From: Candidatus Sungiibacteriota bacterium | Lineage (GTDB): Bacteria; Patescibacteriota; Minisyncoccia; Sungbacterales; HO2-52-23 | NCBI GenBank assembly: GCA_016206285.1 | Contig: JACQRW010000007.1 | Span: 16,455-80,454 of the forward strand | DNA length: 64,000 nucleotides | Reading direction: 5' to 3' | Shown here: positions 7,794-60,579 of the stretch, one piece after another | Layout: each line of letters opens with the position of its first letter | Numbering within the stretch: the first letter of the stretch is position 1 | The notes under the pieces: generated by a model | Seen by the model: only the letters and a program-made list of their open reading frames with translations | Told to the model about the DNA's origin: nothing | The model's database searches: none | Position numbers and translations under genes: made by a program

Positions 7794-8969
7794 ATGTATA
7801 ATCCATCTGAAATCTTTTGGGCATATCGGAACAAAATCACCAACAAACTGTGGGGCATGGTGCATATGCCCGCCCGCAGCACCATTCGACACGCTCATGG
7901 CAGGCAGAAAGGAATTATTCTCATCTCCTATATCACCGAGCCGTTCACGCTGGCGCCGTGGGAAAAGTTTTCCAATTTTCACACCATGTATTGGGAATGC
8001 CGCGAGATCGCGCGCCTGTTCGCGGAAAAAGGATATGCGTCTGACATTGTGAGCGCGGAAAATCTCTCCTTTGTCCCGACCAAACCCTATGCATTTTGCA
8101 TTGATGTGGAAGACGGCCTGCTGCGCCTTTCAAAACATCTTCCCGCCAACTGCAAAAAAATATTCCGTATTCTCAATCCCCATTGGAAAGCGTACAACGA
8201 TGCAGAACAGTTGCGGCTTGACTGGCTTGAAAAACGGCGGGGAGTACGCTTGCTGCCGCACCGCACAAGGCGACCTTCGCAAAATGCCGAGCTTGCGGAC
8301 TTTCTTGAAGGCTTTGGAAACAAAGCCGTATTCGGCACGTTTCGCCAATTCAACAAACCGATATTTTTCGTGCCGATTTCCGCAGTCATCCATTTTGACT
8401 TTCCGGAGAAGAAAGATTTTGCCGCCGCAGCCGAACACTTTATGTGGATAGGCGGAGGAGGGGCAGTACTGAAAGGCCTTGATCTTTGTTTGGAAGCATT
8501 TGCGAAAACGCCCGATCTGCATCTGCACGTATGCGGGCCGATCTACGGTGAGAAAGATTTTACTGACGAGTATAAAAAAGAACTGGAGCAGACCCCGAAT
8601 ATCCATGTGTACGGCAGAATAGACGTAGGCGGCGAACAATTTGCCAAACTTATCGAAACCTGCGGTGCCGTAATCTATCCATCCGGCGGAGAAGGCACCT
8701 CCGGCGCGATTGTGCAGGCCATGCATGCGGGCTTGGTGCCGATCATCACGCACATTACCGGCATACAGGAAGACGCCGGATACATTCAACTGGATGATAA
8801 CCCGACACCAGAGTCCATGGTGCAGGCCGCGCGCGATTTTTCCAACATGCCGCCTGACGAGATCCGTGATCTCTCCAAAAAAATCTGGGGGTACGCGCGC
8901 AAAACGTATACCCGCGAAGAATTCAGCAAGGCGTACAGGCGTTTCATCGAAGACGTGCTAAAATTATAA
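7794..8969 (+). CDS. Glycosyltransferase, GT-B fold (GT4-like C-terminal domain)
   Basis: C-terminal YPSGGEGTSGAIVQAMHAGLVPII motif, the E-x7-E-like region of retaining GT4 enzymes. Confidence 0.7.
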   Translation: MYNPSEIFWAYRNKITNKLWGMVHMPARSTIRHAHGRQKGIILISYITEPFTLAPWEKFSNFHTMYWECREIARLFAEKGYASDIVSAENLSFVPTKPYAFCIDVEDGLLRLSKHLPANCKKIFRILNPHWKAYNDAEQLRLDWLEKRRGVRLLPHRTRRPSQNAELADFLEGFGNKAVFGTFRQFNKPIFFVPISAVIHFDFPEKKDFAAAAEHFMWIGGGGAVLKGLDLCLEAFAKTPDLHLHVCGPIYGEKDFTDEYKKELEQTPNIHVYGRIDVGGEQFAKLIETCGAVIYPSGGEGTSGAIVQAMHAGLVPIITHITGIQEDAGYIQLDDNPTPESMVQAARDFSNMPPDEIRDLSKKIWGYARKTYTREEFSKAYRRFIEDVLKL

Positions 8970-9005
8970 GTATACAAATTCTCACGATCGTGAGAATTTG
9001 TATAC
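8970..9005. promoter_or_regulatory. 36-bp perfect palindrome GTATACAAATTCTCACGATCGTGAGAATTTGTATAC between two glycosyltransferase genes
   Basis: Begins 1 nt after the stop of the upstream gene and ends 9 nt before the next ATG. A second copy of the same architecture occurs at 29596..29631. Confidence 0.55.
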
Positions 9006-9014
9006 TAACGATAC

Positions 9015-9884
9015 ATGAATAGTCAGAAACAGCTCATCAGCGTTATCATACCGGTCTACAATTGCGAAAAGACGATTGCAATCGCGATTGATTCCATAAT
9101 CAACCAGACATACAAAAATCTGGAGATTATTGTCGTAAATGACGCGAGTACCGATACTACCAAAAGCATTGTGCAAACGATCGCGCAAAAAGATTCCCGC
9201 ATCAAGCTCGTAGATGCCGAAGACGACCCGGATCGCTTTGACGCGAAACTCAACCGCAACGTGAATGCTGGCTGGTCAGCCCGCAATACCGGTTTTCAAC
9301 ATGCACATGGAGAGCTTATCACCTTTCAGGATGCGGACGATGCTTCGCTCCTCAACCGCATTGAAATCCAGTATGATCTGCTGGCAAAATACGGCGCAAC
9401 GCACGTGTGTATTGACTGGATACAGTTTGACGAAAAATATCTTGGCACAAAAATCGACCCGTCCACATACCTTGATGATACCCGGATCATAAAGCCGCAG
9501 GAGATCTACGCCATGTCCCAACGCTCCAAAGGTCTCATCGCCAAAATCTTCCCGTCGCTGAACCGCGCAATACCCTTTCACCTGAAAAGAAAAAGAGTCA
9601 TCAATAAACTATTCTTCGGCTCGCTCGAAAACTACCCGGGCCAGGGCAACTGTCCTCTGTTCAGGCGCGAAGTCCTCGAAAAAGTCCGATTCCGAAAACT
9701 TGCGGACCGCGTCTGGCCGTCATTTATGGGCCGCGGTGCGGACAAAGACTTTAATTTCCAGGTCGCCGAAACATTCCATAACAACTACATATTTTTCATC
9801 CCCCTCTACCTGTGGCGCGTGAAAGACCAAAACCAGCGGTACCCGAACGGCATTGACAATATGGCTATTATGCCCGACAAATAG
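9015..9884 (+). CDS. Glycosyltransferase family 2
   Basis: ISVIIPVYNCEKTIAIAIDSIINQTYKNLEIIVVNDASTD motif. Confidence 0.8.
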   Translation: MNSQKQLISVIIPVYNCEKTIAIAIDSIINQTYKNLEIIVVNDASTDTTKSIVQTIAQKDSRIKLVDAEDDPDRFDAKLNRNVNAGWSARNTGFQHAHGELITFQDADDASLLNRIEIQYDLLAKYGATHVCIDWIQFDEKYLGTKIDPSTYLDDTRIIKPQEIYAMSQRSKGLIAKIFPSLNRAIPFHLKRKRVINKLFFGSLENYPGQGNCPLFRREVLEKVRFRKLADRVWPSFMGRGADKDFNFQVAETFHNNYIFFIPLYLWRVKDQNQRYPNGIDNMAIMPDK

Positions 9885-18385: not shown

Positions 18386-19399
18386 ATGTCAAAAATACTT
18401 ATAACCGGCGGGGCCGGTTTTGTCGGATACCATCTGGCAAAACGGCTGGCGGATCAGGAACACGAAATAGTACTCGTTGATAATTTTTCGCGCAACGGAC
18501 GCGATGCCGATTTACTGACCCTGCTTCAACGGCCGAACACCAAGCTTATCGAAGGAGACCTTACCGATCCGGCATCATATGAGAAATTTGGCACCGGATA
18601 TGATTATGTATACCACCTCGCAGGCATCAACGGATTCCGGCAGTTCATGGACATGCCGCATGAAGTGCTGCGAGTCGGCGCTGCCACGGCTTTAAATATC
18701 CTTGACTGGTTCCGGACAAAAAACAATCCGCCGGCAGGCGGACAAGGCGCAAAAATTCTTTTTACCTCAAGCAACGAAGTATTCACCGGAGCACACGAGG
18801 CATTTGGTGCACTGCCCGTTCCCACGCCGGAAAATGTGCCATTGGTGATCGCCGACCCCTACAACCCGCGGTGGTCGTATGCCGGTTCAAAGATCATCAG
18901 CGAATTGTTGTTCATCCACTATGCCAAAGTGTATAACCTGCGCATGGTGATTGTGCGGCTCCACAATCTTTACGGCCCCGGTGCCGGATATGATGCCATG
19001 ATCCCAAAATTCATTGGACGCACTCATAATCGCCTTGACCCGTTCCCCATGTTCGGTCCGGACGATCTCCGCGCATCATGCTATATCGCAGACGCGGTCG
19101 AGGCTATGCAGACAGCCATCGAATCTTCCGCCACTGACGGACAAACATACCATATCGGCGACTCCCGCGAGGCCACGATAAAAACCATTTTGGAAACCAT
19201 GTTTGAGATCATGCAGTGGCATCCGAAAGAATTTGACATCAAACCGTCTCCGAATGGTCCGCCAACTGGCGGATCAACCCGAGATATACTCGACGTCTCC
19301 AAAATCAAGACCGACATTGGATGGGAAGCAAAAACCTCGCTTGAGCAGGGATTACGAAAAACCATCGAGTGGTACCTGGCGCATCCGGCCCAATCCTAA
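18386..19399 (+). CDS. NAD-dependent epimerase/dehydratase (extended SDR), tandem paralog B
   Basis: ILITGGAGFVGYHL and SYAGSK; about 60-65% identical to paralog A over the full length. Confidence 0.8.
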   Translation: MSKILITGGAGFVGYHLAKRLADQEHEIVLVDNFSRNGRDADLLTLLQRPNTKLIEGDLTDPASYEKFGTGYDYVYHLAGINGFRQFMDMPHEVLRVGAATALNILDWFRTKNNPPAGGQGAKILFTSSNEVFTGAHEAFGALPVPTPENVPLVIADPYNPRWSYAGSKIISELLFIHYAKVYNLRMVIVRLHNLYGPGAGYDAMIPKFIGRTHNRLDPFPMFGPDDLRASCYIADAVEAMQTAIESSATDGQTYHIGDSREATIKTILETMFEIMQWHPKEFDIKPSPNGPPTGGSTRDILDVSKIKTDIGWEAKTSLEQGLRKTIEWYLAHPAQS

Positions 19400-19477
19400 T
19401 TATCAAAAATCAGTATAATCATCTAAACAATTACTCGACGATCGTCAGAAGATTGTTAAGATGATTAACAACAAAAA

Positions 19478-19514
19478 AGCGCGGGCTGAACTTCAGCGCC
19501 GCGCTCGTTTTTTT
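19478..19514. terminator. Bidirectional rho-independent terminator between convergent genes
   Basis: AAAAAA-AGCGCGGGCTGAACTTCAGCGCCGCGCT-CGTTTTTTT: a GC-rich hairpin with an A-run upstream and a T-run downstream. Confidence 0.65.
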
Positions 19515-19596
19515 ACTAAAATAGACAATAATCGTCTTGCGTTTTAGTATGAAAAAAACAATCCACGAGAATCAAAATATCTATAAATTTTTACAT

Positions 19597-22917: not shown

Positions 22918-23823
22918 ATGACAACCCTTTCCTATATCATCGCCACGCGCAACAAGCTCCCCTATCTCAAAGCGGGGCTTGAAAAACTCATCGCCCACAA
23001 AAAACCGGATGAGGAGATTTTGGTTGCGGACGGGGCAAGCACGGACGGAACTCCGGAGTATCTGGCGGAGCTGAAAGCAGCGGGAAAAATCGAGTATTTT
23101 GTATCGGAGAAAGATTTCGGGCTTGCGCATGCGCTGAATAAATTGGTGCTGGTTTCAAACGGTACGCTTCTGAAATATCTGACCGATGACGACGCCTTTG
23201 ATTATGGAGTAATTCAAAAATGCAGAACGTTCATGCTTGAGCACCCGGAAGTTGATCTCGTGAACACCGAGGGCGGATCGCTCAACGATCCATCCCGCAT
23301 GGCTGCATACCAAGACCCGCTGCAGGTAGTGCGGGCGCTGAACTATGAAGAGCCGTACAAACAATGGCAACAAGACCACACGCCTTTTTATTTTTGCGAT
23401 CTGGGTATCATATTCCGGCGCTCGTCGCTGCCGGTGACGGGTTTTTGGAATGTGCTGTTCCCCGGACCCGACATTGAACTCTCCCTCCGGACAAGCAAAG
23501 GACGGGTAAATATCGCATGGTACACCGGCTACTCGTACGTCAATATCAGCAACCCCCAGAGCGTGAGCGTGGTATTCATGCAAAAAACGAAAAGACTGAC
23601 GGAGCGGCTGGACAAGCTCTATTTTGATAAAAATCCGGACTCTCTCATTGTGCGGAAGCTGAAAGTGCTGCGCAATAAACTGCGGAGCGGCTTGATGCCT
23701 AAAACCTCCGGCACATCAATACCCTTTCAGGAACAATGGCCGGAGCTTATCAAGACATCGGAAAAATGGCTTGAGCTTAAAAATCTGCAAAAAGAACCTG
23801 AGTTCCTCGTAAAGCCCCTATGA
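22918..23823 (+). CDS. Glycosyltransferase family 2-like, tandem paralog B
   Basis: LSYIIATRNKLPYLKAGLEKLIAHKKPDEEILVADGASTDGT; shares a ~100-nt near-identical tract with paralog A. Confidence 0.65.
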   Translation: MTTLSYIIATRNKLPYLKAGLEKLIAHKKPDEEILVADGASTDGTPEYLAELKAAGKIEYFVSEKDFGLAHALNKLVLVSNGTLLKYLTDDDAFDYGVIQKCRTFMLEHPEVDLVNTEGGSLNDPSRMAAYQDPLQVVRALNYEEPYKQWQQDHTPFYFCDLGIIFRRSSLPVTGFWNVLFPGPDIELSLRTSKGRVNIAWYTGYSYVNISNPQSVSVVFMQKTKRLTERLDKLYFDKNPDSLIVRKLKVLRNKLRSGLMPKTSGTSIPFQEQWPELIKTSEKWLELKNLQKEPEFLVKPL

Positions 23824-24893
23824 ATCTTCTTGAGTATCAGGGCAAAGAACTGTTGAAAAAATATGCGATCCCGGTACCGGATTCTTTTTTGATGTATCCG
23901 GAAAGCTTTCTTCCCGATCTTTCGATTCCATTTTTTCTCAAATCCCAGGTTGCGGCCGGAGACAGAAATAAATATGGGGGCATCGTGCAGGTCGAATCGG
24001 CGGCTGATTTTATATCCGCAAAAGAAAAACTTTTCAAAACTCCGATTGCGGGTCTCAAACCGGACGTACTTTTGGCCGAAAAGAAAATCGGGTATACGGG
24101 GGAGCTCTATCTCTCATTCAGCTATGATACCCGCACGCGTGCTCCCGCTCTGTCGCTCGCGCGCCAAGGAGGCAGCGGCGTAGCCGAGGCATGCGTGTTT
24201 CCGATTGACATTGTTACGGGACTTCAAGATTTTTTTATCCGAGATGCCCTGCTTTCTGCAGGGCTTCCGCTCCATGCGGAATTGAAAGGGATCATACAAA
24301 AACTCTGGCGCCTGTTCGAATCAGAACACGCTCTTGTTGCCGAGATCAATCCCCTTTTTGCCACAGGAGAAACGGGCTACATTGCGGGTGATGCAAAAAT
24401 AATCCTGGACGACTACCATGCAAATCCCGAATACCGTCCGTTTATTGATCTTCCGGGCGACATCGCCATTATCGCATCGGGCGGGGGCGCGTCCATGCTC
24501 AATATTGACGCGCTTATGCATGCCGGAGGCAAACCCGCCAATTATGCGGAATACTCCGGCAATCCGCCGGCAAGCGTGGTGGAAGAACTTACAGTCCGCA
24601 TTTTGACCAAACCGGGCTTAAAAGGCTGCTGGGTGATCGGCGGCACGGCAAATTTTACCGATATCTATGAAACCATGCTCGGCTTTGTCGCCGGACTCCG
24701 CAAGATCAGCCCCAAGCCGGATTTTCCCATTGTGATCCGCCGCGACGGCCCGCGACGTGAAGAGGCATTTCAAATGCTTCAGGAAGTTGCTTCGCGCGAG
24801 GGATATACCTTCTCGCTTTTCGGCCCTGAAGTTCCTATGGCATACACGGCAGAATATCTTGTGAAAAAAATATATGAGCATTCTGATAGATAA
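23820..24893 (+). CDS. Succinyl-CoA-synthetase beta-subunit-like ATP-grasp protein (citryl-CoA synthetase/ACL small-subunit-like)
   Basis: MNLLEYQGKELLKKYAIPVP N-terminus typical of SucC/ACL ATP-grasp; about 357 aa. Overlaps the next gene (coupled). Confidence 0.7.
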   Translation: MNLLEYQGKELLKKYAIPVPDSFLMYPESFLPDLSIPFFLKSQVAAGDRNKYGGIVQVESAADFISAKEKLFKTPIAGLKPDVLLAEKKIGYTGELYLSFSYDTRTRAPALSLARQGGSGVAEACVFPIDIVTGLQDFFIRDALLSAGLPLHAELKGIIQKLWRLFESEHALVAEINPLFATGETGYIAGDAKIILDDYHANPEYRPFIDLPGDIAIIASGGGASMLNIDALMHAGGKPANYAEYSGNPPASVVEELTVRILTKPGLKGCWVIGGTANFTDIYETMLGFVAGLRKISPKPDFPIVIRRDGPRREEAFQMLQEVASREGYTFSLFGPEVPMAYTAEYLVKKIYEHSDR

Positions 24894-25785
24894 AAATACC
24901 AAGGTGCTGGTGCAGGGCATTACCGGAAAAGAGGGGGGACGCGCGGCTGAAGATATGCTCGCCTACGGTACGGCTGTCATAGGGGGCACGTCTCCGGGAA
25001 AAGGCGGCGCGCGCGAAAAAAATAATCTGCCTGTTTTCAACAGCGTGGCTGAGGCAATGGCCGCATACCCGGATATCGGCGCGTCCATGATCGCGGTTCC
25101 GGCTCCGTTTGTGTTCGATGCGGCTATGGAGGCGATCGCATCGCGAATCCCCCTTATCGTGATCTTGTCGGAAAAAGTCCCGGTCAGCCACGTTGCCAAG
25201 ATAATCGCGCACGCAAAATTGAATGGCGTGCGGATCGTGGGGCCAAGCTCCATCGGGATCATCTCGCCGGGACGCGCAAAGATCGGCAGCGTGGGCGCGG
25301 CGGGCATCGCTGACCGGATATTTTCACCGGGCACGGTGGGCGTGATCTCAAAAAGCGGAGGCATGACGGCAGAACTGTCGCGCATACTTACCGATGCGGG
25401 CATTGGCCAGAGCACGGCAATCGGCATAGGCGGAGATCTGCTGATCGGCACCGATTTTGTTGACGCCGCACTTTTATTCGAGCAAGATAAAGACACCAAA
25501 GCTTTGGCTATCTTCGGAGAAATCGGCGGCACCTATGAAGAACAGCTTGCGGACGCGATCCGGCAAAAGAAGATCACCAAACCGGTTGTCGCGCTTATCG
25601 CCGGGCAATTTTCCGAACAGCTTGCTACAGGAGCAGTATTGGGCCATGCCGGAGCGATCGTGATGAAAGGAGCGGGGTCGTTTACGTCCAAAATCAAAGC
25701 GCTGCGCGAGGCCGGAGCGATCGTAGCCGAGACTCCCGAAGATATTCCGGTACACCTTCAGCAACTTTTAGGTAAAACCATATGA
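24874..25785 (+). CDS. Succinyl-CoA-synthetase alpha-subunit-like CoA-binding/ligase protein with phosphohistidine loop
   Basis: VLVQGITGKEGG CoA-binding motif and GAVLGHAGAIV (GHAGA catalytic His loop). Confidence 0.8.
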   Translation: MSILIDKNTKVLVQGITGKEGGRAAEDMLAYGTAVIGGTSPGKGGAREKNNLPVFNSVAEAMAAYPDIGASMIAVPAPFVFDAAMEAIASRIPLIVILSEKVPVSHVAKIIAHAKLNGVRIVGPSSIGIISPGRAKIGSVGAAGIADRIFSPGTVGVISKSGGMTAELSRILTDAGIGQSTAIGIGGDLLIGTDFVDAALLFEQDKDTKALAIFGEIGGTYEEQLADAIRQKKITKPVVALIAGQFSEQLATGAVLGHAGAIVMKGAGSFTSKIKALREAGAIVAETPEDIPVHLQQLLGKTI

Positions 25786-26486
25786 AAATAAAAACAGAGA
25801 TCAGCGCTTCGCAAGATCACGAACATAATATCCGCGGGAAACCGCTTGGCGATCTTATCCGGAATCATTCGTTTGTCGAAACTCTTTTTTTGCTTTTTCG
25901 CGGCAACATGCCAAACAAAGCTGAAGAGGATCTCCTGAATGCCCTGCTGGTCAGCGCAGCAGAACATGATATTGAGGCACCTTCTCTCTTCGTACCCAGG
26001 ATAAGCACATCTGTCGGCAATCCGCCGCAGGCCGCACTCGCCGCTGGCATCTTGTCCATCGGTCCCAGCCATGGAGGCGCGGGATGGGAGGCGGCCCGGC
26101 TCCTTGCAGGCCCGGAAACGCCGCAAGAGATCGTAACAAGATTTTTAAAAGAACATGCGCCGATACCCGGTTACGGGCACAGGATATATAAAGATGCAGA
26201 CCCGAGAGTTTCCGTCATCGAAGAAAAGATCCGCGTATCCGGCGTTTCGGGGACGCATTTTGACCGCGCCCGGGCGATTGAAAAAGAACTTGCAACGCAA
26301 AAAGGAAAACATATTCCCTTGAACATAGACGGCGCTTTTGCCGCATGCGTTCTTGACCTTGGTTTTGCGCCGGAAACCGCCCTGGAACTTTTCATTCTTG
26401 CCCGCATCGCAGGCATGTCGGCGCATATCAACGAAGAACGGCAACAGCATAATCCGTACTATCGGCTTGAAAATGGTTCATTATGA
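25782..26486 (+). CDS. Citrate-synthase-fold protein (citryl-CoA-lyase / ATP-citrate-lyase C-terminal-domain-like)
   Basis: PGYGHRIYKDADPRV matches the citrate-synthase active-site signature. 234 aa, the size of Ccl-type citryl-CoA lyases. Confidence 0.7.
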   Translation: MKIKTEISASQDHEHNIRGKPLGDLIRNHSFVETLFLLFRGNMPNKAEEDLLNALLVSAAEHDIEAPSLFVPRISTSVGNPPQAALAAGILSIGPSHGGAGWEAARLLAGPETPQEIVTRFLKEHAPIPGYGHRIYKDADPRVSVIEEKIRVSGVSGTHFDRARAIEKELATQKGKHIPLNIDGAFAACVLDLGFAPETALELFILARIAGMSAHINEERQQHNPYYRLENGSL

Positions 26487-28047: not shown

Positions 28048-28824
28048 ATGCATATGAGCATCCGCGACCGGCTTAAGCGCATTACTCTTTTAAAAATTTT
28101 GGTTGTTATCTGGCGGGTATTCCGCAATAGGCACGGTTTTTTTGCCAAGATACGGGCGCTTGGTTCTTTCTTTGAATCATGGTCGGCATTCCGGCATATG
28201 CCCCGCAACAGTGCTTTCTTATTGAAAACGCATGACCTCTATCCCCGTTTGTTCGATAATACGCATGGAACCCCTATTGATCCGGTATATTTTTATCAAG
28301 ATACATGGTGCGCCGGAAAAATTTTCAGCCAGAAGCCGGAGCATCACTATGACATTGCGTCGGAAGCTGAATTTATCGGTATCATTTCGCAATTTGTGCC
28401 AACCACTATGGTGGACATCCGGCCGTTGCCGGTTACGCTGCCCAATCTTTCATTTATGCAGGGAGACACCACGCGGCTTCCATTTGACGACAGCAGCATC
28501 GCGTCATTGAGTTCCATTTGCGTGATCGAACACATCGGTCTTGGACGGTACGGAGATCCGCTTGATCCCTTCGGCTCTGAAAAAGCTCTTGCAGAAATGA
28601 TCCGCGTACTGGCGCCGGGCGGATCGCTTTATATTTCGGTGCCGATTGATGCGGAAAATAAGGTTTACTTCAACGCGCATCGCGCATTTTCCCCAAACTA
28701 CATTTTCAAACTCTGCATGCCTCTTACGCTCATTGAAGAGCGCTATGTATACGGCAACCGCATGGAACAAACATATGACCCCAAAAAGGGATTCGGCACC
28801 GGCCTTTATCATTTTAAAAAATGA
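28048..28824 (+). CDS. SAM-dependent methyltransferase-like protein (DUF268/Methyltransf_11-like)
   Basis: MVDIRPLPV..LSFMQGD..LPFDDSSI..ICVIEHIG..LAPGGSLYISVP pattern. Confidence 0.5.
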   Translation: MHMSIRDRLKRITLLKILVVIWRVFRNRHGFFAKIRALGSFFESWSAFRHMPRNSAFLLKTHDLYPRLFDNTHGTPIDPVYFYQDTWCAGKIFSQKPEHHYDIASEAEFIGIISQFVPTTMVDIRPLPVTLPNLSFMQGDTTRLPFDDSSIASLSSICVIEHIGLGRYGDPLDPFGSEKALAEMIRVLAPGGSLYISVPIDAENKVYFNAHRAFSPNYIFKLCMPLTLIEERYVYGNRMEQTYDPKKGFGTGLYHFKK

Positions 28825-29576
28825 AAAAACGTATGCATATAAAGCTCTCCTCGCATCGTACCGTCAAATTCATTCTTTTTCAGCGCTCGCAATATTTGCT
28901 TTGGCGCCGCAATAAAACTATACAGCGATTTGCTCGCGCGTTGCCCAGACGGCTTGCGTTCAGCCTTGAGGCGCTGGCAAGCAACTTCAATGCAACCGTA
29001 TCTCTGGAGGCGCTATTTACGAGAAAAAGCGTAGAAAAACTTTTCAGTGAAGAGATGACGCTGGAATACAACCAAATGAAACCCTATCTGCCGGCGCACG
29101 CCCGCACGATTCTTGATATCGGAGCAGGCGTAGGCGGCATTGACATACTGCTTGGCAAGCACTATGAGCAGGACAAGCCTATGATCTATCTGCTCGATAA
29201 GACAGAAATGCCTGCCAAGGTGTATTATAGCTTGCGGGAAAAAGGATGTTTTTATAACTCGCTGGAGCTTGGCCGGGATATGCTGGTTGAAAACGGCATC
29301 AAACCCGAACAAATTTTTTTGCAAGAGGCAACCGATGACAACCGCATTATCTCCGACACGAAATTCGATCTGATTGTCTCCCTTATCTCATGGGGATTCC
29401 ACTATCCCATCGCAACTTACCTTGACCAGGTATATGACAAGCTGGCCGAAGGCGGGGCGGTGATCACGGATGTGCGGAGACACGGCAACGGCATTGAGCT
29501 GCTGCAAAAAAAGTTTCCGAAAACCAAGATTATTTTTGAAGCGCAAAAACATGTTCGCATCGTTGCGTGGAAATAA
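28821..29576 (+). CDS. Class I SAM-dependent methyltransferase, paralog A
   Basis: ILDIGAGVGGIDILL motif I; LAEGGAVI. Confidence 0.6.
   Translation: MKKRMHIKLSSHRTVKFILFQRSQYLLWRRNKTIQRFARALPRRLAFSLEALASNFNATVSLEALFTRKSVEKLFSEEMTLEYNQMKPYLPAHARTILDIGAGVGGIDILLGKHYEQDKPMIYLLDKTEMPAKVYYSLREKGCFYNSLELGRDMLVENGIKPEQIFLQEATDDNRIISDTKFDLIVSLISWGFHYPIATYLDQVYDKLAEGGAVITDVRRHGNGIELLQKKFPKTKIIFEAQKHVRIVAWK
29082..29212. repeat. 131-nt tract 100% identical to 30867..30997 in the methyltransferase paralog
   Basis: ccctatctgccggcgcacgcccgcacgattcttgatatcggagcaggcgtaggcggcattgacatactgcttggcaagcactatgagcaggacaagcctatgatctatctgctcgataagacagaaatgcc occurs in both copies. Confidence 0.85.
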
Positions 29577-29595
29577 CAAAAGTAATTATCAGTCA

Positions 29596-29631
29596 GTATA
29601 CAAATTAAAACGATCGTCGAAATTTGTATAC
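29596..29631. promoter_or_regulatory. Second copy of the 36-bp GTATACAAATT-N14(CGATCG core)-AATTTGTATAC dyad element
   Basis: GTATACAAATTAAAACGATCGTCGAAATTTGTATAC has the same 11-bp arms and CGATCG centre as 8970..9005, and the same position between a stop codon and the next start (ATG at 29649). Confidence 0.55.
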
Positions 29632-29648
29632 TAAGAGAGAACCATAAT

Positions 29649-30620
29649 ATGAAGAAACATCTGATCATCCTCCGCCATAACAGCGGCAAGGGCGGCCACG
29701 GGCGGCTCGCAAACCAGCTTTGGAATTTTATGAGCATCTATGCGTATGCGCTTGAACGCGGATACGATCTTGAAAATTATTCGTTCTTTGAATACCATGA
29801 TTGCTTTCAGATTCCTCCGGTGCGAAATTTTCCGGTGCGGTGCCTTTTTTTCTCGCCATTTCCTTTTCTTGCAAAAAAGTTCGGGCAAACGCGTGCAGCA
29901 ATTTTTACCCGCAAAGTCTACAAGCTGTATGTAATGGCGGTCAGACTAAGACATGGCAAAACTTTGTTGAATTCCTACAACTCTCCCGATATTGCGGGAA
30001 TCTTTTATCTTCCGCCCTCCGAACCGGCCAGACCCGCGCTTCAGAAACTCGAGGACAACCCGCGCATCAAAAACATATACTTTGACGGCTGGCTTTTCCG
30101 AAACCCGGCCGGTGTAATGAAATATCACTCCGAAATTCTTGAATACTTCAAGCCAAAAGACGAGACGCGCAAAACGATAGCAGCATTTATGGAACCGCTG
30201 AAAACACAGTACGACAACCTGGTTGGCGTTCATATCCGGCAGGATGATTATAAAACGTTCAAAGGAGGCCGGTACTTTGTGGAGCAGGCGCGTATTCGGG
30301 AGATCCTTGACGAATATCTGCGGGAATTCAAAAAAGATCCGGAGCATACCTGTTTTATCATTACCTCGAACGGTCCCATTAAACGCGAGATATTTCAGGG
30401 ATTACATTTTGAAATAAGCAATCTCGGATTCATTGAAGATTTGTTCTTGCTTGCCTCATGCACTGCCATAATCGGCTCCGATTCAAGCTTTGGCAATTTC
30501 GCAGCCTACTACGGCAACACGCCGCATATTGTCTTTCAAAAAGAACCCATGGACTGGGAATACTACGCCGGAAAAACAAAATATTTCTGGAACAAGTATT
30601 GCACACTCGTGCATTTTTAA
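29649..30620 (+). CDS. Putative glycosyltransferase with GT11-like motifs (divergent)
   Basis: GKGGHGRLANQLWNFMSIYAYA resembles GT11 motif I (GGLGNQ.FQYA). C-terminal IIGSDSSFGNFAAYYG resembles the GT11 SSFSWWGAWL motif. Weak assignment. Confidence 0.4.
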   Translation: MKKHLIILRHNSGKGGHGRLANQLWNFMSIYAYALERGYDLENYSFFEYHDCFQIPPVRNFPVRCLFFSPFPFLAKKFGQTRAAIFTRKVYKLYVMAVRLRHGKTLLNSYNSPDIAGIFYLPPSEPARPALQKLEDNPRIKNIYFDGWLFRNPAGVMKYHSEILEYFKPKDETRKTIAAFMEPLKTQYDNLVGVHIRQDDYKTFKGGRYFVEQARIREILDEYLREFKKDPEHTCFIITSNGPIKREIFQGLHFEISNLGFIEDLFLLASCTAIIGSDSSFGNFAAYYGNTPHIVFQKEPMDWEYYAGKTKYFWNKYCTLVHF

Positions 30621-30650
30621 TTGCCATGCAAGCCCTTTTTTAGTACACTT

Positions 30651-31355
30651 ATGACTATGATTATCCCGAATAAAGCAATTAAATACATACTATTCCAGCG
30701 GACGGAATATCTGCTCTCCATGAAAAGTCCGTTATTAAACCGTTTCGTGGTACGCGTACCATCGCGCATGTACAATCTGGCAGTTACACTGGAGGCTCTC
30801 CTGACCAAACCGCGGGTCAAGCGTCTGTTTCAAGAAGACATGGAGCGCGAGTATGCCATTTTGAAGCCCTATCTGCCGGCGCACGCCCGCACGATTCTTG
30901 ATATCGGAGCAGGCGTAGGCGGCATTGACATACTGCTTGGCAAGCACTATGAGCAGGACAAGCCTATGATCTATCTGCTCGATAAGACAGAAATGCCCAA
31001 AAAAGTCTACTACGGCCTGGAACAAAAGGGCTGTTATTACAACTCGCTTTCTTTGGCAAAAGATATGCTCGTTCAAAATGGCCTTACTGCCGGCCATATT
31101 ATCACTCAAGAAGCAGACAATGATTACCGAATCAATTTTGATGCAAAATTCGATCTGGTGATCTCGCTGATTTCATGGGGATTTCACTATCCTATTGCGA
31201 CCTATCTTGATCAGGTTTACGCGCTGCTGGCACCTGGCGGCATACTTATCCTTGACGTGCGCAAGGGCACAGAAGAAGAGATAATGAAAAAATTCGGTAA
31301 CGCAACAAAAATTTTTGAAGCGCGGAAATATTTCAGAGTCATGGCGCGAAAATAG
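30651..31355 (+). CDS. Class I SAM-dependent methyltransferase, paralog B
   Basis: ILDIGAGVGGIDILL; contains a 131-nt tract 100% identical to paralog A. Start taken at the first ATG (MTMIIP); the ORF-track start at 30621 is a TTG. Confidence 0.6.
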   Translation: MTMIIPNKAIKYILFQRTEYLLSMKSPLLNRFVVRVPSRMYNLAVTLEALLTKPRVKRLFQEDMEREYAILKPYLPAHARTILDIGAGVGGIDILLGKHYEQDKPMIYLLDKTEMPKKVYYGLEQKGCYYNSLSLAKDMLVQNGLTAGHIITQEADNDYRINFDAKFDLVISLISWGFHYPIATYLDQVYALLAPGGILILDVRKGTEEEIMKKFGNATKIFEARKYFRVMARK

Positions 31356-49238: not shown

Positions 49239-49982
49239 AAGATTATTAAAGATTTTTGCTTTGCCCCGGACAACGTTACTAACAGAAACTTTTTTCTGTC
49301 TCTTCCTGTTTCAGTAAAGACAGAAAAAGCTTCGTGCCTCTGAACGCTTCACTTCTTATCCTTGTCGACGAACTGGATTTGAGATGAAGCGTATTTTGAT
49401 TTGAATAATGAAGAAGAAAAACTTTGGAGCCAAGTTCCCCTCATCCAGCCCCTATTTTCAACAGCAAGCTCAACATCACCAAACCTTGCGGCTGAAAATA
49501 GGAGCTGGACTTAAGGAGATCGACCGAATCTTGAAGCCCCAAGTAAGGAAACCTCCAACTGCGTTCGATATCTCAATTCCTTGTTTTCTCAATTGTCAAT
49601 GTTCTCTCCGATCAGCCAGTGACTTCCATGCATCCCATATAATAAGAAACGTTCCAAAATTGTAACCTTTCTTATTATATGAGTGCGGGACTTTTTCTGA
49701 TATACGTAAACCAAACCAAAAATGGCTTTCTTAAAAATTAGATGTAATCAGGCGTTCCACATACTTATATCATAAGTATACTGTTCTCACAAGCATGCGC
49801 AAGTGCACTTATCCACAAAAAGTATTTCCCTTAGATATCATGCAAATTGCGCTTATTTTCGAACTCTCTCCAGTATAGAGCCAGCTGCCTTGTTCGACAA
49901 GCCCTGGCCCTGTGGATAACATATATCATGCTTGCATATACACTCATTTGCGCCCATTTATAGAGCCTCTTAAGAGAGTATC

Positions 49983-50855: not shown

Positions 50856-50942
50856 ATAGTTTGTCCCTTATATATGAAAAATGTCCTATATTCTATAAGA
50901 CATTTCCCATATATAAGATGTGTTATCCCCATAAATGAGAAA

Positions 50943-51779
50943 TTACTTGAGAGAATAGATCGTCCAACGTTTTTCGCCTTCTTTTTTAAGGACATCTTTT
51001 TGCACCAGATCGTGCAGATCGCGTTGGATAGTTTTAGCGCTTACATCAGCAAGCAGGGTCTGGAAATCACTTATTTTTGCCTGGGACACCTTTTCTACAA
51101 AGCTAAGTATATCTTTTTGGCGACCGGTTATACTGGCATTTTGACCGGAGTGGCGTAGCAAAGGTTTTTGAGAAACTTGCTTCTCACTGTCTTTGGCGGG
51201 GCCGTCAGAATCAATACGCCTGTTGGGCATGGACATTTCCGGACCGCTTTGTCTTGTCGCCTTCTGATTATGCCCGGTATATTCTGCGTTCGTTCGGTCA
51301 GGCGAAGCGTGCTGCTTCCCATGACTCTCACTCACTTGATTATACTCTGTATATTCGGCGTTCGCTCGGCCTCGAGAAATGGGTTTCTCGCGGCTCTCAC
51401 TCACTTGATTATAACCCGCTGCATCGGGGTTCCAGTCACGATTTTGGGAAATATTGTTCACGGCAAGTTCCTGCCTGAAAAAATGTTCAAGCGCTTCATA
51501 CTCGCGTTCAAGGATAGTCAGGTTGATCGGCCGGACCAGCCGCATGGCACGGCTCACGCGCAAATACCCTTTTATGGTTTCAACCCTGGCAAGCACACTA
51601 AGAGCCTCCGCTTCATGACTGCCGGCATAATCGTATTCGGTGACATTTCCAAAAATTTCGTTTGCCTTTTCCCGAAGCTGCCGCTTGAGCGCCTCCCCCT
51701 GCGGAAAAAAATCCGTTACGCGGTAGAGCGCCAGGGTGAGTTCAAACGCTTTGCGATGCAATTCTTGCGAAGTGTTCAT
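50943..51779 (-). CDS. Four-helix-bundle (23S-rRNA-IVS/Avd-family-like) domain fused to an internal 25-aa tandem repeat and a C-terminal winged-helix DNA-binding domain
   Basis: N-terminal LHRKAFELTLALYRVTDFFPQGE resembles the TIGR02436 family. YNQVSES...NAEYT is repeated twice (~75-nt DNA repeat at about 51290..51440). C-terminal ILSFVEKVSQAKISDFQTLLADVSAKTIQRDLHDLVQKDVL is a DeoR-like HTH. Confidence 0.5.
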   Translation of the reverse strand: MNTSQELHRKAFELTLALYRVTDFFPQGEALKRQLREKANEIFGNVTEYDYAGSHEAEALSVLARVETIKGYLRVSRAMRLVRPINLTILEREYEALEHFFRQELAVNNISQNRDWNPDAAGYNQVSESREKPISRGRANAEYTEYNQVSESHGKQHASPDRTNAEYTGHNQKATRQSGPEMSMPNRRIDSDGPAKDSEKQVSQKPLLRHSGQNASITGRQKDILSFVEKVSQAKISDFQTLLADVSAKTIQRDLHDLVQKDVLKKEGEKRWTIYSLK

Positions 51780-60469: not shown

Positions 60470-60579
60470 CACCCCCAATATATTATGTATTGGGGAATTT
60501 TATTTCTCCTACCACTAAAGTAATATCCGATCGGTCATTACTGTAGTGGCAATATGCGCGGGCTTTTGGAAATTCATGG

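What the first reader, a model, noticed from the sequence alone, without database searches (positions are those of the whole stretch)
8970..9005. Repeated 36-bp dyad element GTATACAAATT-N14-AATTTGTATAC placed exactly between genes (two copies, 20 kb apart)
Copy 1 at 8970..9005 is a perfect palindrome, starting 1 nt after a stop codon and ending 9 nt before the next start. Copy 2 at 29596..29631 has identical 11-bp arms, an identical central CGATCG and the same 36-bp length, but different bases at the 4 positions flanking the centre on each side. Conserved arms and centre with a variable inner spacer point to a dimeric DNA-binding-protein operator rather than a pure RNA hairpin, since a hairpin would show compensatory changes. 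Neither copy is followed by a T-run, so neither is a canonical intrinsic terminator. Both precede glycosyltransferase genes (GT2 at 9015 and a GT11-like gene at 29649). They could co-regulate or insulate sub-operons of the glycan locus, or act as a REP-like or recombination element.
Basis: seen in the sequence. Interest (0 to 1): 0.55.

Follow-up and report, generated by a model that had tools for sequence, protein, structure and literature searches.

The report
REP-like hairpin repeats in a CPR bacterium
The two 36-bp dyads are real and belong to a previously undescribed family of about 38-bp hairpin-forming palindromes, all centred on CGATCG/CGGCCG, that sit just after stop codons in a group of tiny Sungbacteria (candidate phyla radiation) genomes; they resemble the REP elements of E. 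coli more than a regulator's binding site.

Summary
In detail: two copies with identical 11-nt arms and an identical 8-bp core (ACGATCGT), none expected by chance. They are not a private feature of the glycan locus. The window (a Candidatus Sungbacteria MAG) holds four intergenic palindromes centred on CGATCG, all just 3' of stop codons. Three related genomes carry eight to nine more, centred on CGATCG, CGGCCG or CGGTCG (consensus CGRYCG). All share one geometry: invariant C:G at the hexamer ends, a mismatch-tolerant inner zone, and a 10-bp outer stem whose sequence differs between families but stays paired (about 38 bp in total). Elements are inherited at orthologous junctions, after GT1, the epimerase and SufS. 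They are also gained, replaced or decayed elsewhere: one empty site, one half-relic, and one sporadic copy in a Wolfebacteria-like genome. Copy 1 and its orthologue are almost identical although neutral sites differ by about 50%, and their inner positions changed without compensation. Best reading: a REP-like repeat family transcribed inside operons, folding into hairpins of -12 to -27 kcal/mol that probably protect or process mRNA segments, with the CGRYCG apex recognised by an unknown factor. A classical operator, a terminator and a promoter are each poorly supported.

The parts
8969..9006 (.). Copy 1 (c1): perfect 38-nt palindrome AGTATACAAATTCTC-ACGATCGT-GAGAATTTGTATACT between the GT1 and GT2 genes
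   Evidence: RNA fold -23.7 kcal/mol, z = -7.6. Orthologue at L101:11153-11188.
29595..29632 (.). Copy 2 (c2): same outer arms and core, inner 3+3 positions unpaired (AAA/CGA)
   Evidence: RNA fold -12.4 kcal/mol, z = -2.2: a 12-bp outer stem with a large apical region.
19416..19467 (.). Class member c3: longer palindrome with core ACGATCGT, 16 nt after the stop of the second epimerase and just upstream of a canonical terminator
   Evidence: Fold -18.7 kcal/mol, z = -4.7. Orthologue at L101:19722-19759 with diverged but still paired arms.
60512..60549 (.). Class member c4: palindrome with core CCGATCGG between convergent genes (a 139-aa ORF and SufS)
   Evidence: Fold -19.2 kcal/mol. Orthologues directly after SufS in L095, L093 and L098.
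9007..9014 (+). 8-nt remainder of the spacer (AACGATAC) between c1 and the GT2 start codon; no Shine-Dalgarno sequence; conserved in the L101 orthologue apart from its last base
7794..8969 (+). GT1/GT4-family glycosyltransferase gene whose TAA stop abuts c1
   Evidence: Pfam. Syntenic homologues.
9015..9884 (+). GT2 glycosyltransferase gene downstream of c1
   Evidence: Pfam.
28821..29576 (+). Gene upstream of c2 (no Pfam hit; paralogue of 30621-31355)
29649..30620 (+). GT11-like gene downstream of c2
   Evidence: Pfam.
19472..19515 (+). Canonical GC-rich intrinsic terminator with a T-run directly after c3, showing that c3 is not needed as the terminator
   Evidence: Sequence.
60473..60503 (+). 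Ordinary hairpin plus T-rich tail (CCCCAATATATTATGTATTGGGG AATTTTATTT) terminating the 139-aa ORF, next to c4
   Evidence: Sequence.

Best explanation
Copies 1 and 2 are two members of one sequence subfamily (arms GTATACAAATT) of a lineage-specific family of REP-like extragenic palindromes in Candidatus Sungbacteria. Every member is about 38 bp. It has a CGRYCG centre (mostly CGATCG), an inner zone that tolerates mismatches, and a 10-bp outer stem. The elements occupy short spacers just after stop codons, either inside operons or in 3' UTRs. They are therefore transcribed with the upstream gene and fold into a hairpin of about 17 bp. The most likely effect is post-transcriptional: a 3'-exonuclease barrier and/or an endonuclease processing site that sets the relative stability of mRNA segments on either side (as in selective RNA processing and stabilisation, and REP elements), without terminating transcription. 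The invariant palindromic apex and the strongly conserved arms of the copy-1 subfamily imply that an unidentified protein reads the element sequence-specifically; the same recognition may be how the family spreads and is kept uniform. Shown here: the family, its geometry, its placement, pairing with covariation, orthologous inheritance, gain and loss, and sequence constraint. Inferred: transcription, RNA-level action, the existence of a recognising factor, and mobility.
For: Family and geometry. In the window, 4 of 5 intergenic CGATCG sites are centres of long palindromes, against 0 of 19 coding sites. Three of the five best zero-loop palindromes in the window are centred on CGATCG. Relatives carry the same kind of element: L095 x3, L101 x2, L093 x2 (CGGCCG), L098 x2 (CGATCG and CGGTCG), and a weaker one in L103. 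In a centre-anchored stack of 15 elements, the hexamer's C:G pairs in 15/15, positions k7-16 pair in 11-15/15 with 2-5 Watson-Crick pair types per position, k>=17 falls to near background, and slid-partner controls give about 4/15. A geometry scan with no constraint on the centre gives 24 hits in 167 kb against about 5 in shuffles, and 12 of the 24 are centred on CGRYCG.

Stable folds. Energies are -12 to -27.5 kcal/mol; 11 of 14 have z <= -3.2.

Placement. All 13-14 Sungbacteria members lie 0-93 nt after a stop codon, and 8 are in co-directional spacers 9-59 nt before the next start.

Inheritance and constraint. Copy 1 has an orthologue at the same GT1/GT2 junction in L101 with 6/45 differences, although 4-fold sites differ by about 50% (P about 3e-7). 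The c3 and c4 orthologues keep the core and the pairing while their arms diverge.

Turnover. The same junction is empty in L104 (ATGA overlap) and holds a different hairpin in L103. L097 has a half-relic. L001, a Wolfebacteria-like CPR genome, has a sporadic identical-arm copy that is absent from its syntenic relative L106.

Functional precedent. Intercistronic stem-loops that mostly lack U-runs protect upstream cistrons and are conserved at orthologous junctions (PMC4423207).
Against: There are no expression data, so transcription through the elements and any effect on mRNA are inferred. G-T and A-C mismatches are equally frequent in the stems, so nothing favours RNA over single-stranded DNA or cruciform pairing. 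A palindromic loop (GAUC/GGCC) has no known RNA-stability advantage and is not needed for an RNA hairpin, which hints at a DNA-level or protein-recognition constraint that this model leaves unexplained. c3 and c4 sit beside canonical terminators, where an extra protective hairpin looks redundant, and L093's second element lies downstream of a terminator-like hairpin. No RAYT or other transposase was seen in about 170 kb of lineage DNA (and the gene tables). Copy number per genome could only be extrapolated, at about 1 per 10-16 kb.
Confidence: 0.5

Rival explanations
1. Operator for a dimeric (or tetrameric) DNA-binding regulator. The protein reads the outer arms GTATACAAATT and the core ACGATCGT on double-stranded DNA and controls the downstream glycosyltransferase genes.
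For: Arms and core are identical in c1, c2, the L101 orthologue and L001, while the inner linkers vary without compensation. The c1 spacer is conserved far beyond neutral expectation. The whole element, centre included, is two-fold symmetric. There is a precedent for a terminator palindrome that is also a TF site (LexA at ruvA; bioRxiv 10.64898/2026.08.19.745784). L001's copy lies upstream of ruvB.
Against: Other class members in the same genomes share only the centre, and their arms covary to keep pairing, which has no meaning for a duplex-binding protein. The sites lie after stop codons and inside operons, not in promoter regions. Arm spacing is 14 nt in Sungbacteria but 12 nt in L001. The ruvB-upstream copy is absent from the syntenic relative L106. 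The targets share no function (glycosyltransferases, ruvB, a relic after ClpB). No regulator gene lies next to either copy.
Confidence: 0.12
2. Selfish or neutral miniature mobile DNA (REP/MITE-like) with no host function. The CGRYCG centre and the arms are the recognition site of the enzyme that copies it, and the post-stop location simply reflects where insertions are tolerated in a very compact genome.
For: Each genome has its own arm families with several copies: GTATACAAATT x2 in the window; TCAACA(C)TTC x3 in the L095/L101 genome; TACTAAGC x2 in L093. There is presence/absence and replacement at one junction and a decayed half-copy. An identical-arm copy occurs in a distant CPR lineage and is missing from that lineage's relative. 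Intergenic DNA is only 8% of the window.
Against: No transposase was found in any sampled DNA. There are no target-site duplications. The c1 spacer, including the leader outside the palindrome, is under strong purifying selection across about 50% neutral divergence. The post-SufS element is retained in four genomes. These findings are more easily explained if the elements do something for the host. This rival overlaps with the best explanation on origin and differs only on function.
Confidence: 0.2
3. Factor-dependent or U-tract-independent transcription terminators or attenuators that partly stop transcription between sub-operons.
For: They are strong hairpins directly after stop codons. Internal terminators that tune operon stoichiometry are known (PMC9045158, listed).
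Against: No T-run follows any member on the sense strand. The stems are AT-rich. The next start codon is only 9-20 nt away in several cases, with no room for a promoter. The same genome uses canonical GC-rich hairpin plus T-run terminators at operon ends (10930, 19472, 4638). c3 sits immediately upstream of one.
Confidence: 0.1
4. Internal, symmetric promoter: TTnnnA-N16-TATACT formed by the inner arm and the element's right edge, driving the downstream glycosyltransferase genes.
For: The consensus scan flags TTCTCA-16-TATACT at c1 on both strands. L101 has TTGATA-16-TATACT, and both window copies end in TATACT.
Against: It scores only 9/12, at a level where the region yields 35 such hits against 26 in shuffles. 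The putative -35 falls in the variable linker. L001 has TATACC, lacking the key final T. Other class members have no such hexamers. A palindromic promoter would also fire antisense into the upstream gene.
Confidence: 0.04

Closest known systems
REP / PU elements (repetitive extragenic palindromes) of Enterobacteria and Pseudomonas, mobilised by RAYT (TnpA_REP) transposases
   Same: They are 20-40-bp imperfect palindromes. They are strictly extragenic but lie within transcription units, in intercistronic spacers and 3' UTRs. Their sequence families are species-specific, with a consensus that outlasts neutral divergence. Individual sites are gained and lost. They form hairpins known to stabilise upstream mRNA.
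   Different: No GTAG/CTAC head. No doublet (BIME/REPIN) arrangement: all copies here are solitary. No RAYT gene has been seen so far. Here the invariant part is the centre (CGRYCG) and the stem varies, whereas in REPs the stem is conserved and the loop varies. The host is a CPR genome of about 1 Mb.
Intercistronic stem-loops of selective RNA processing and stabilisation (SRPS), e.g. the Clostridium cellulolyticum cip-cel operon (PMC4423207); also the malE-malF REP and T7 RNase III sites
   Same: They are hairpins of similar energy (-7 to -32 kcal/mol) at the 3' ends of cistrons inside operons, mostly without U-runs, and conserved at orthologous junctions.
   Different: SRPS stem-loops are unrelated in sequence to one another. 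The elements here share a fixed size, a fixed centre and repeated arms, so they form a repeat family.
HIP1 (GCGATCGC) of cyanobacteria (PMC5861425)
   Same: It contains the same CGATCG hexamer and is a lineage-specific palindromic signature of unknown function.
   Different: HIP1 is an 8-mer that is hyper-abundant inside genes as well. Here CGATCG is not enriched (24 found, 28.8 expected), its flanks are A...T or C...G rather than G...C, and the motif matters only as the centre of long intergenic palindromes.
Integron attC sites
   Same: They are imperfect palindromes placed directly after the stop codon of each gene, with structure conserved more than sequence, and they act as folded single strands.
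   Different: attC sites are 55-140 bp with R''/R' core sites (RYYYAAC/GTTRRRY) and extrahelical bases. Those features are absent here, and there is no integrase.

Membership tests
REP/RAYT elements | Short (20-40 bp) imperfect palindrome able to form a hairpin | tested here: met
   about 38 bp, folds of -12 to -27 kcal/mol.
REP/RAYT elements | Extragenic, in intercistronic or 3'-UTR positions | tested here: met
   plus the gene tables. All members lie after stop codons; one (L101:19722) overlaps the last 30 nt of a called CDS.
REP/RAYT elements | Many copies per genome (dozens to hundreds) | not testable with these tools
   Only partial genomes were available. Observed density is 4 per 64 kb, 5 per 42 kb, 2 per 33 kb and 2-3 per 27 kb. 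The exact-arm subfamily has 2 copies in 64 kb.
REP/RAYT elements | Conserved GTAG/CTAC tetranucleotide at the foot of the hairpin | tested here: not met
   Alignment. The ends are AGTA..., TCAAC... or TACTAA...; there is no common GTAG.
REP/RAYT elements | Cognate RAYT (Y1 HUH transposase, PF01797) in the genome, often flanked by REPs | tested here: inconclusive
   None found in the window (Pfam) or in the precomputed Pfam tables for about 100 kb of relatives. Whole genomes were not searchable.
REP/RAYT elements | Frequent arrangement as inverted doublets (BIME/REPIN) | tested here: not met
   All members are solitary.
Intrinsic (Rho-independent) terminator | GC-rich stem followed by a U-tract on the transcribed strand | tested here: not met
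   stem GC is about 30% and there is no T-run on the sense strand. Canonical terminators exist elsewhere in the window.
HIP1 | GCGATCGC octamer hyper-abundant genome-wide, including in coding DNA | tested here: not met
Integron attC | R''/L''...L'/R' architecture with GTTRRRY, length of at least 55 bp, nearby integrase or cassette array | tested here: not met
   Sequences. No integrase in the Pfam scans.
Transcription-factor operator (e.g. LexA-type SOS box upstream of ruvB) | Conserved at orthologous promoters of the regulon, with fixed half-site spacing | tested here: not met
   L106 lacks it upstream of ruvB. Arm spacing is 12 versus 14 nt. Sungbacteria copies are not in promoter regions.
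TIGR-Tas arrays (Patescibacteria, 36-nt tigRNAs) | Tandem arrays of alternating short repeats or stem-loops next to a Nop-domain Tas gene, with box C/D motifs | tested here: not met
   The copies are solitary and 20 kb apart. There is no tandem array and no Nop-domain hit in any Pfam scan of the window ORFs examined. Definition taken from PMC12045711.
Known RNA families (Rfam 15) | Match at the gathering threshold | tested here: not met
   only sub-threshold generic hairpin matches to miRNA precursor models.

The most novel reading that the evidence does not exclude
The fixed 38-bp geometry together with the invariant, self-complementary CGRYCG apex could be the recognition module of a dedicated, still unidentified CPR protein. 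Candidates are a hairpin-specific endoribonuclease that 'punctuates' polycistronic mRNAs at gene boundaries (as RNase III sites do in T7, or tRNA punctuation does in mitochondria), or a single-strand hairpin transposase of a new type. The AT -> GT -> GC series at the two central bases (CGATCG, CGGTCG, CGGCCG at orthologous sites) behaves like covariation of a base pair. That cannot form within one hairpin, so it would imply a symmetric dimeric reader or loop-loop (kissing) pairing between two elements.
Probability: 0.2. Interest if true: 0.75.

Novelty: new variant of a known kind. Interest (0 to 1): 0.5.

Why it matters
CPR/Patescibacteria have streamlined genomes of about 1 Mb with very little intergenic DNA, and almost nothing is known about how they organise transcription or mRNA decay. 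A repeat family that fills a sizeable share of the spacers after stop codons, is kept at orthologous junctions across about 50% neutral divergence, and carries an invariant palindromic apex points to an uncharacterised layer of operon-level control, or to an uncharacterised mobile element, in these organisms. It also gives a precise motif with which to look for the cognate protein. On the practical side, these perfect palindromes break de Bruijn-graph assemblies: two independent Logan contigs end inside copy 1 or its orthologue. This matters for MAG reconstruction of these lineages.

Tried and rejected
1. Genome-wide motif (HIP1-like): CGATCG is not enriched.
2. Same-arm hairpins elsewhere: the genome, metagenome and viral scans for GTATACAAATT-N6-30-AATTTGTATAC gave 33 + 52 + 5 loci. 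All except L001 are unrelated hairpins that happen to use the same 11-mer (Acinetobacter, gut Bacteroidales-like bidirectional terminators, a giant-virus repeat, termite spirochaetes). None has the ACGATCGT core.
3. LexA/SOS operator, prompted by L001's position upstream of ruvB: rejected because the syntenic relative L106 lacks it.
4. Rfam families: none.
5. Phage, plasmid, vector or synthetic origin (the element contains BstZ17I and PvuI sites): no BLAST hits and no viral pattern hits.
6. TIGR arrays: wrong architecture.
7. Integron attC: wrong size and no core sites.
8. Target-site duplications: the TAA on both sides of c1 is not repeated at c2 or L001.
9. Strand bias of G-T versus A-C mismatches, to separate RNA from DNA pairing: 6 versus 6, uninformative.
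10. The count of structure pairs on the MAFFT alignment: not usable because MAFFT introduced symmetric one-column shifts, so the statistics were computed on a gapless centre-anchored stack instead.
11. One contig look-up was wasted: the exact window SufS protein (P0001) is not on record.

Full report
OBSERVATION. Both copies exist exactly where stated. Copy 1 (c1, 8970-9005) is a perfect palindrome, 38 nt long if the flanking A/T pair is counted. Copy 2 (c2, 29596-29631) has the same 11-nt arms. A search allowing 3 mismatches finds only these two sites, and none is expected in 100 shuffles. The copies differ at three positions on each side of the centre, not four, so the shared core is the 8-mer ACGATCGT. 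Both are preceded by A and followed by TAA. c1 starts directly after the TAA stop of a GT1-family gene and ends 9 nt before the ATG of a GT2 gene. c2 lies between an unannotated gene and a GT11-like gene. Neither is followed by a T-run on the sense strand.

THE TWO COPIES ARE PART OF SOMETHING LARGER. An inverted-repeat scan showed two more intergenic palindromes centred on CGATCG. c3 (19416-19467, core ACGATCGT) follows the second of two tandem epimerase genes and precedes a canonical terminator. c4 (60512-60549) lies between a small ORF and SufS. CGATCG itself is not enriched (24 sites, 28.8 expected). However, 4 of the 5 intergenic sites are centres of long palindromes, against 0 of 19 coding sites, and three of the five best zero-loop palindromes in the window have this centre. 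No other intergenic CGRYCG site in the window folds this way.

ORGANISM AND RELATIVES. SufS is 100% identical to a protein of a Candidatus Sungbacteria MAG (Patescibacteria/CPR). Contigs from relatives with 80-82% SufS identity carry the same kind of element. L095/L101 (GCA_964371935.1) have five, all centred on CGATCG. L093 (GCA_016196115.1) has two, centred on CGGCCG. L098/L103 have one on CGATCG, one on CGGTCG and a weaker one on CGGCCG. More distant relatives lack them (L097 at 72% and L099 at 62%), apart from a half-relic in L097.

ARCHITECTURE. I stacked 15 elements on their central hexamer without gaps. The terminal C:G of the hexamer pairs in 15/15, the next position in 14/15, positions k4-6 only in 6-11/15, and positions k7-16 in 11-15/15 with two to five different Watson-Crick pair types per position. 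Beyond k16, pairing falls to near background, and slid-partner controls give about 4/15. So the elements have a fixed size of about 38 bp: a 10-bp outer stem, a mismatch-tolerant zone, a short apical stem and a 4-nt loop (GAUC, GGCC or GGUC). Predicted folds run from -12 to -27.5 kcal/mol. A scan for this geometry with no requirement on the centre finds 24 sites in 167 kb of lineage DNA, against about 5 in shuffles, and 12 of the 24 are centred on CGRYCG. Each genome has its own repeated arm families: GTATACAAATT (c1, c2) in the window, TCAACA(C)TTC (three copies) in the L095/L101 genome, and TACTAAGC (two copies) in L093.

PLACEMENT. Every Sungbacteria member lies 0-93 nt downstream of a stop codon, and many lie within 0-19 nt. 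Eight sit in co-directional spacers, 9-59 nt before the next start. The rest lie between convergent genes or at operon ends (gene tables). None lies in a purely divergent promoter region, although with 13-14 elements that absence is only suggestive. The elements follow SufS, ClpB, ProRS, an epimerase, a transketolase half and others, so they have no special link to glycosyltransferases.

EVOLUTION. The glycan locus is syntenic in three relatives. At the GT1/GT2 junction, L101 has the orthologue of c1: TAA-GTATACAAATT-GAT-ACGATCGT-GAG-TGTTTGTATAC-TAACGATAT-ATG. Four-fold degenerate sites in five flanking or nearby genes differ by 40-51% between these two genomes. The 45-nt spacer differs at only 6 positions, five of them in the inner zone. 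P(<=6 of 45) is about 3e-7 at 50% divergence and about 0.008 even at 30%. The inner changes are not compensatory, so L101's inner stem is broken, as it is in c2.

By contrast, the orthologues of c3 (after the epimerase) and c4 (after SufS, in four genomes) have heavily diverged arms that still pair, and they keep the core. At the central two bases the SufS-linked elements read AT, GT and GC in different genomes.

The same GT1/GT2 junction is empty in L104, where the genes overlap as ATGA. In L103 it holds a different 93-nt GC-rich hairpin (-48.8 kcal/mol) that uses two G-U pairs on the sense strand. L093 has an element after ClpB that the window lacks. At that location L097 has AGTATACATTTCAATTG-ACGATCGT followed by non-complementary sequence, which looks like a decayed c1-type copy.

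Collection scans for the arm pair found many unrelated hairpins and one true relative. This is L001, a Wolfebacteria-like CPR MAG, with GTATACAAATT-CA-ACGATCGT-TG-AATTTGTATAC between rpmF and ruvB. A syntenic relative of that organism, L106, lacks it.

INTERPRETATION. The elements combine complementary but variable arms, fixed size, strictly extragenic post-stop placement, genome-specific repeated families, inheritance with turnover, and a family consensus that outlives neutral divergence. That is the behaviour of REP-type elements, and the intercistronic location and fold energies match hairpins known to protect or process operon mRNAs (PMC4423207). I therefore read c1 and c2 as two members of a REP-like family that act as transcribed hairpins at gene boundaries.

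Two features go beyond a plain hairpin. One is the invariant palindromic apex CGRYCG. The other is the sequence-level conservation of the c1-type arms. Both argue for a sequence-specific reader, which I could not identify: there is no transposase, DNA methyltransferase or adjacent regulator in the window or the sampled relatives. Whether pairing matters in RNA, in single-stranded DNA or as a cruciform is not resolved, because wobble and A-C mismatches are equally frequent.

RIVALS. A duplex-binding operator explains the conserved arms and core and the uncompensated linkers. It does not explain the covarying arms of sister elements, the post-stop location, the different arm spacing in L001 or the absence from L106. 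Termination is unlikely: there is no U-tract, the stems are AT-rich, the next starts are 9-20 nt away, and canonical terminators are present, one of them right after c3. The promoter-like TTnnnA-N16-TATACT is weak, lies partly in the variable linker and is absent from other members. HIP1, attC, CRISPR/TIGR arrays, all Rfam families and a vector origin were each tested and excluded.

NOVELTY. Full-text searches found no description of such elements in CPR bacteria, nor of palindromes centred on CGATCG apart from HIP1. This is a new variant of a known kind: REP-like extragenic palindromes whose conserved part is the centre rather than the stem. Interest is moderate. It would be higher if a dedicated reader protein exists.

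Noticed in passing
L034 (starts at window 8977) and L102 (ends 27 nt after the GT1 stop): Two independent Logan assemblies break inside copy 1 or its orthologue. Perfect palindromes of this class appear to fragment de Bruijn-graph assemblies of these genomes.
   Followed up: partly
L103:11156-11248: At the same GT1/GT2 junction, a third genome has a 93-nt GC-rich insert that folds into a long hairpin (-48.8 kcal/mol, z = -5.8) with two sense-strand G-U pairs. Its outer arms, GCAAACCGA...TCGGTTTGC, would form a CGATCG-centred palindrome if joined, as if a class element had been split at its centre by a nested insertion. No Rfam match.
   Followed up: partly
window 28821-29576 and 30621-31355; also 17396-18385/18386-19399 and 21985-22914/22918-23823: There are three pairs of paralogous genes in the glycan locus (70-85% nucleotide identity over parts). 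The first pair brackets the GT11-like gene that follows copy 2.
   Followed up: no
window 23820-26486: Three adjacent genes inside the glycan locus look like an ATP-citrate-lyase/citryl-CoA-type module (ATP-grasp_2 + Citrate_bind; CoA_binding + Ligase_CoA; citrate synthase C-terminal domain). This is unexpected in a CPR polysaccharide cluster.
   Followed up: no
window 49636-49681 and 50867-50917: Two long AT-rich hairpins (22-24-bp stems with 2-3-nt loops) do not have the CGRYCG centre. They lie in the spacers around a nucleotidyltransferase gene and a gene with a weak DeoR-type HTH match. They are a different kind of element from the class described here.
   Followed up: no
window 51244-51432: Three imperfect 48-nt direct repeats spaced about 70 nt apart, inside the ORF 50943-51779 (minus strand).
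   Followed up: no
L097:3719-7390: SufB in this Sungbacteria relative is 1223 aa and carries two intein/LAGLIDADG insertions. The same locus also has AbiEii and HicA toxin genes.
   Followed up: no
L098:2860-4212: A reverse-transcriptase (RVT_1) gene, possibly a group II intron or retron, lies about 1.4 kb from a class element (L098:1385-1420).
   Followed up: no
L101:19722-19759 versus window 19385-19399: In L101 the orthologue of c3 overlaps the last 30 nt of the called epimerase CDS (C-terminus ...WYLAHPFSIQHSLTIVR* versus ...WYLAHPAQS* in the window). The element seems to have supplied a new C-terminal tail and stop codon.
   Followed up: partly
L002, L003, L027 (termite-gut Treponema/Spirochaetaceae MAGs): Hairpins GTATACAAATT-CAC-NNNN-GTG-AATTTGTATAC have the same 11-nt arms as copy 1 but an ordinary 4-nt loop. 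There are three loci in two MAGs. Whether they are related to the CPR element is unknown.
   Followed up: no
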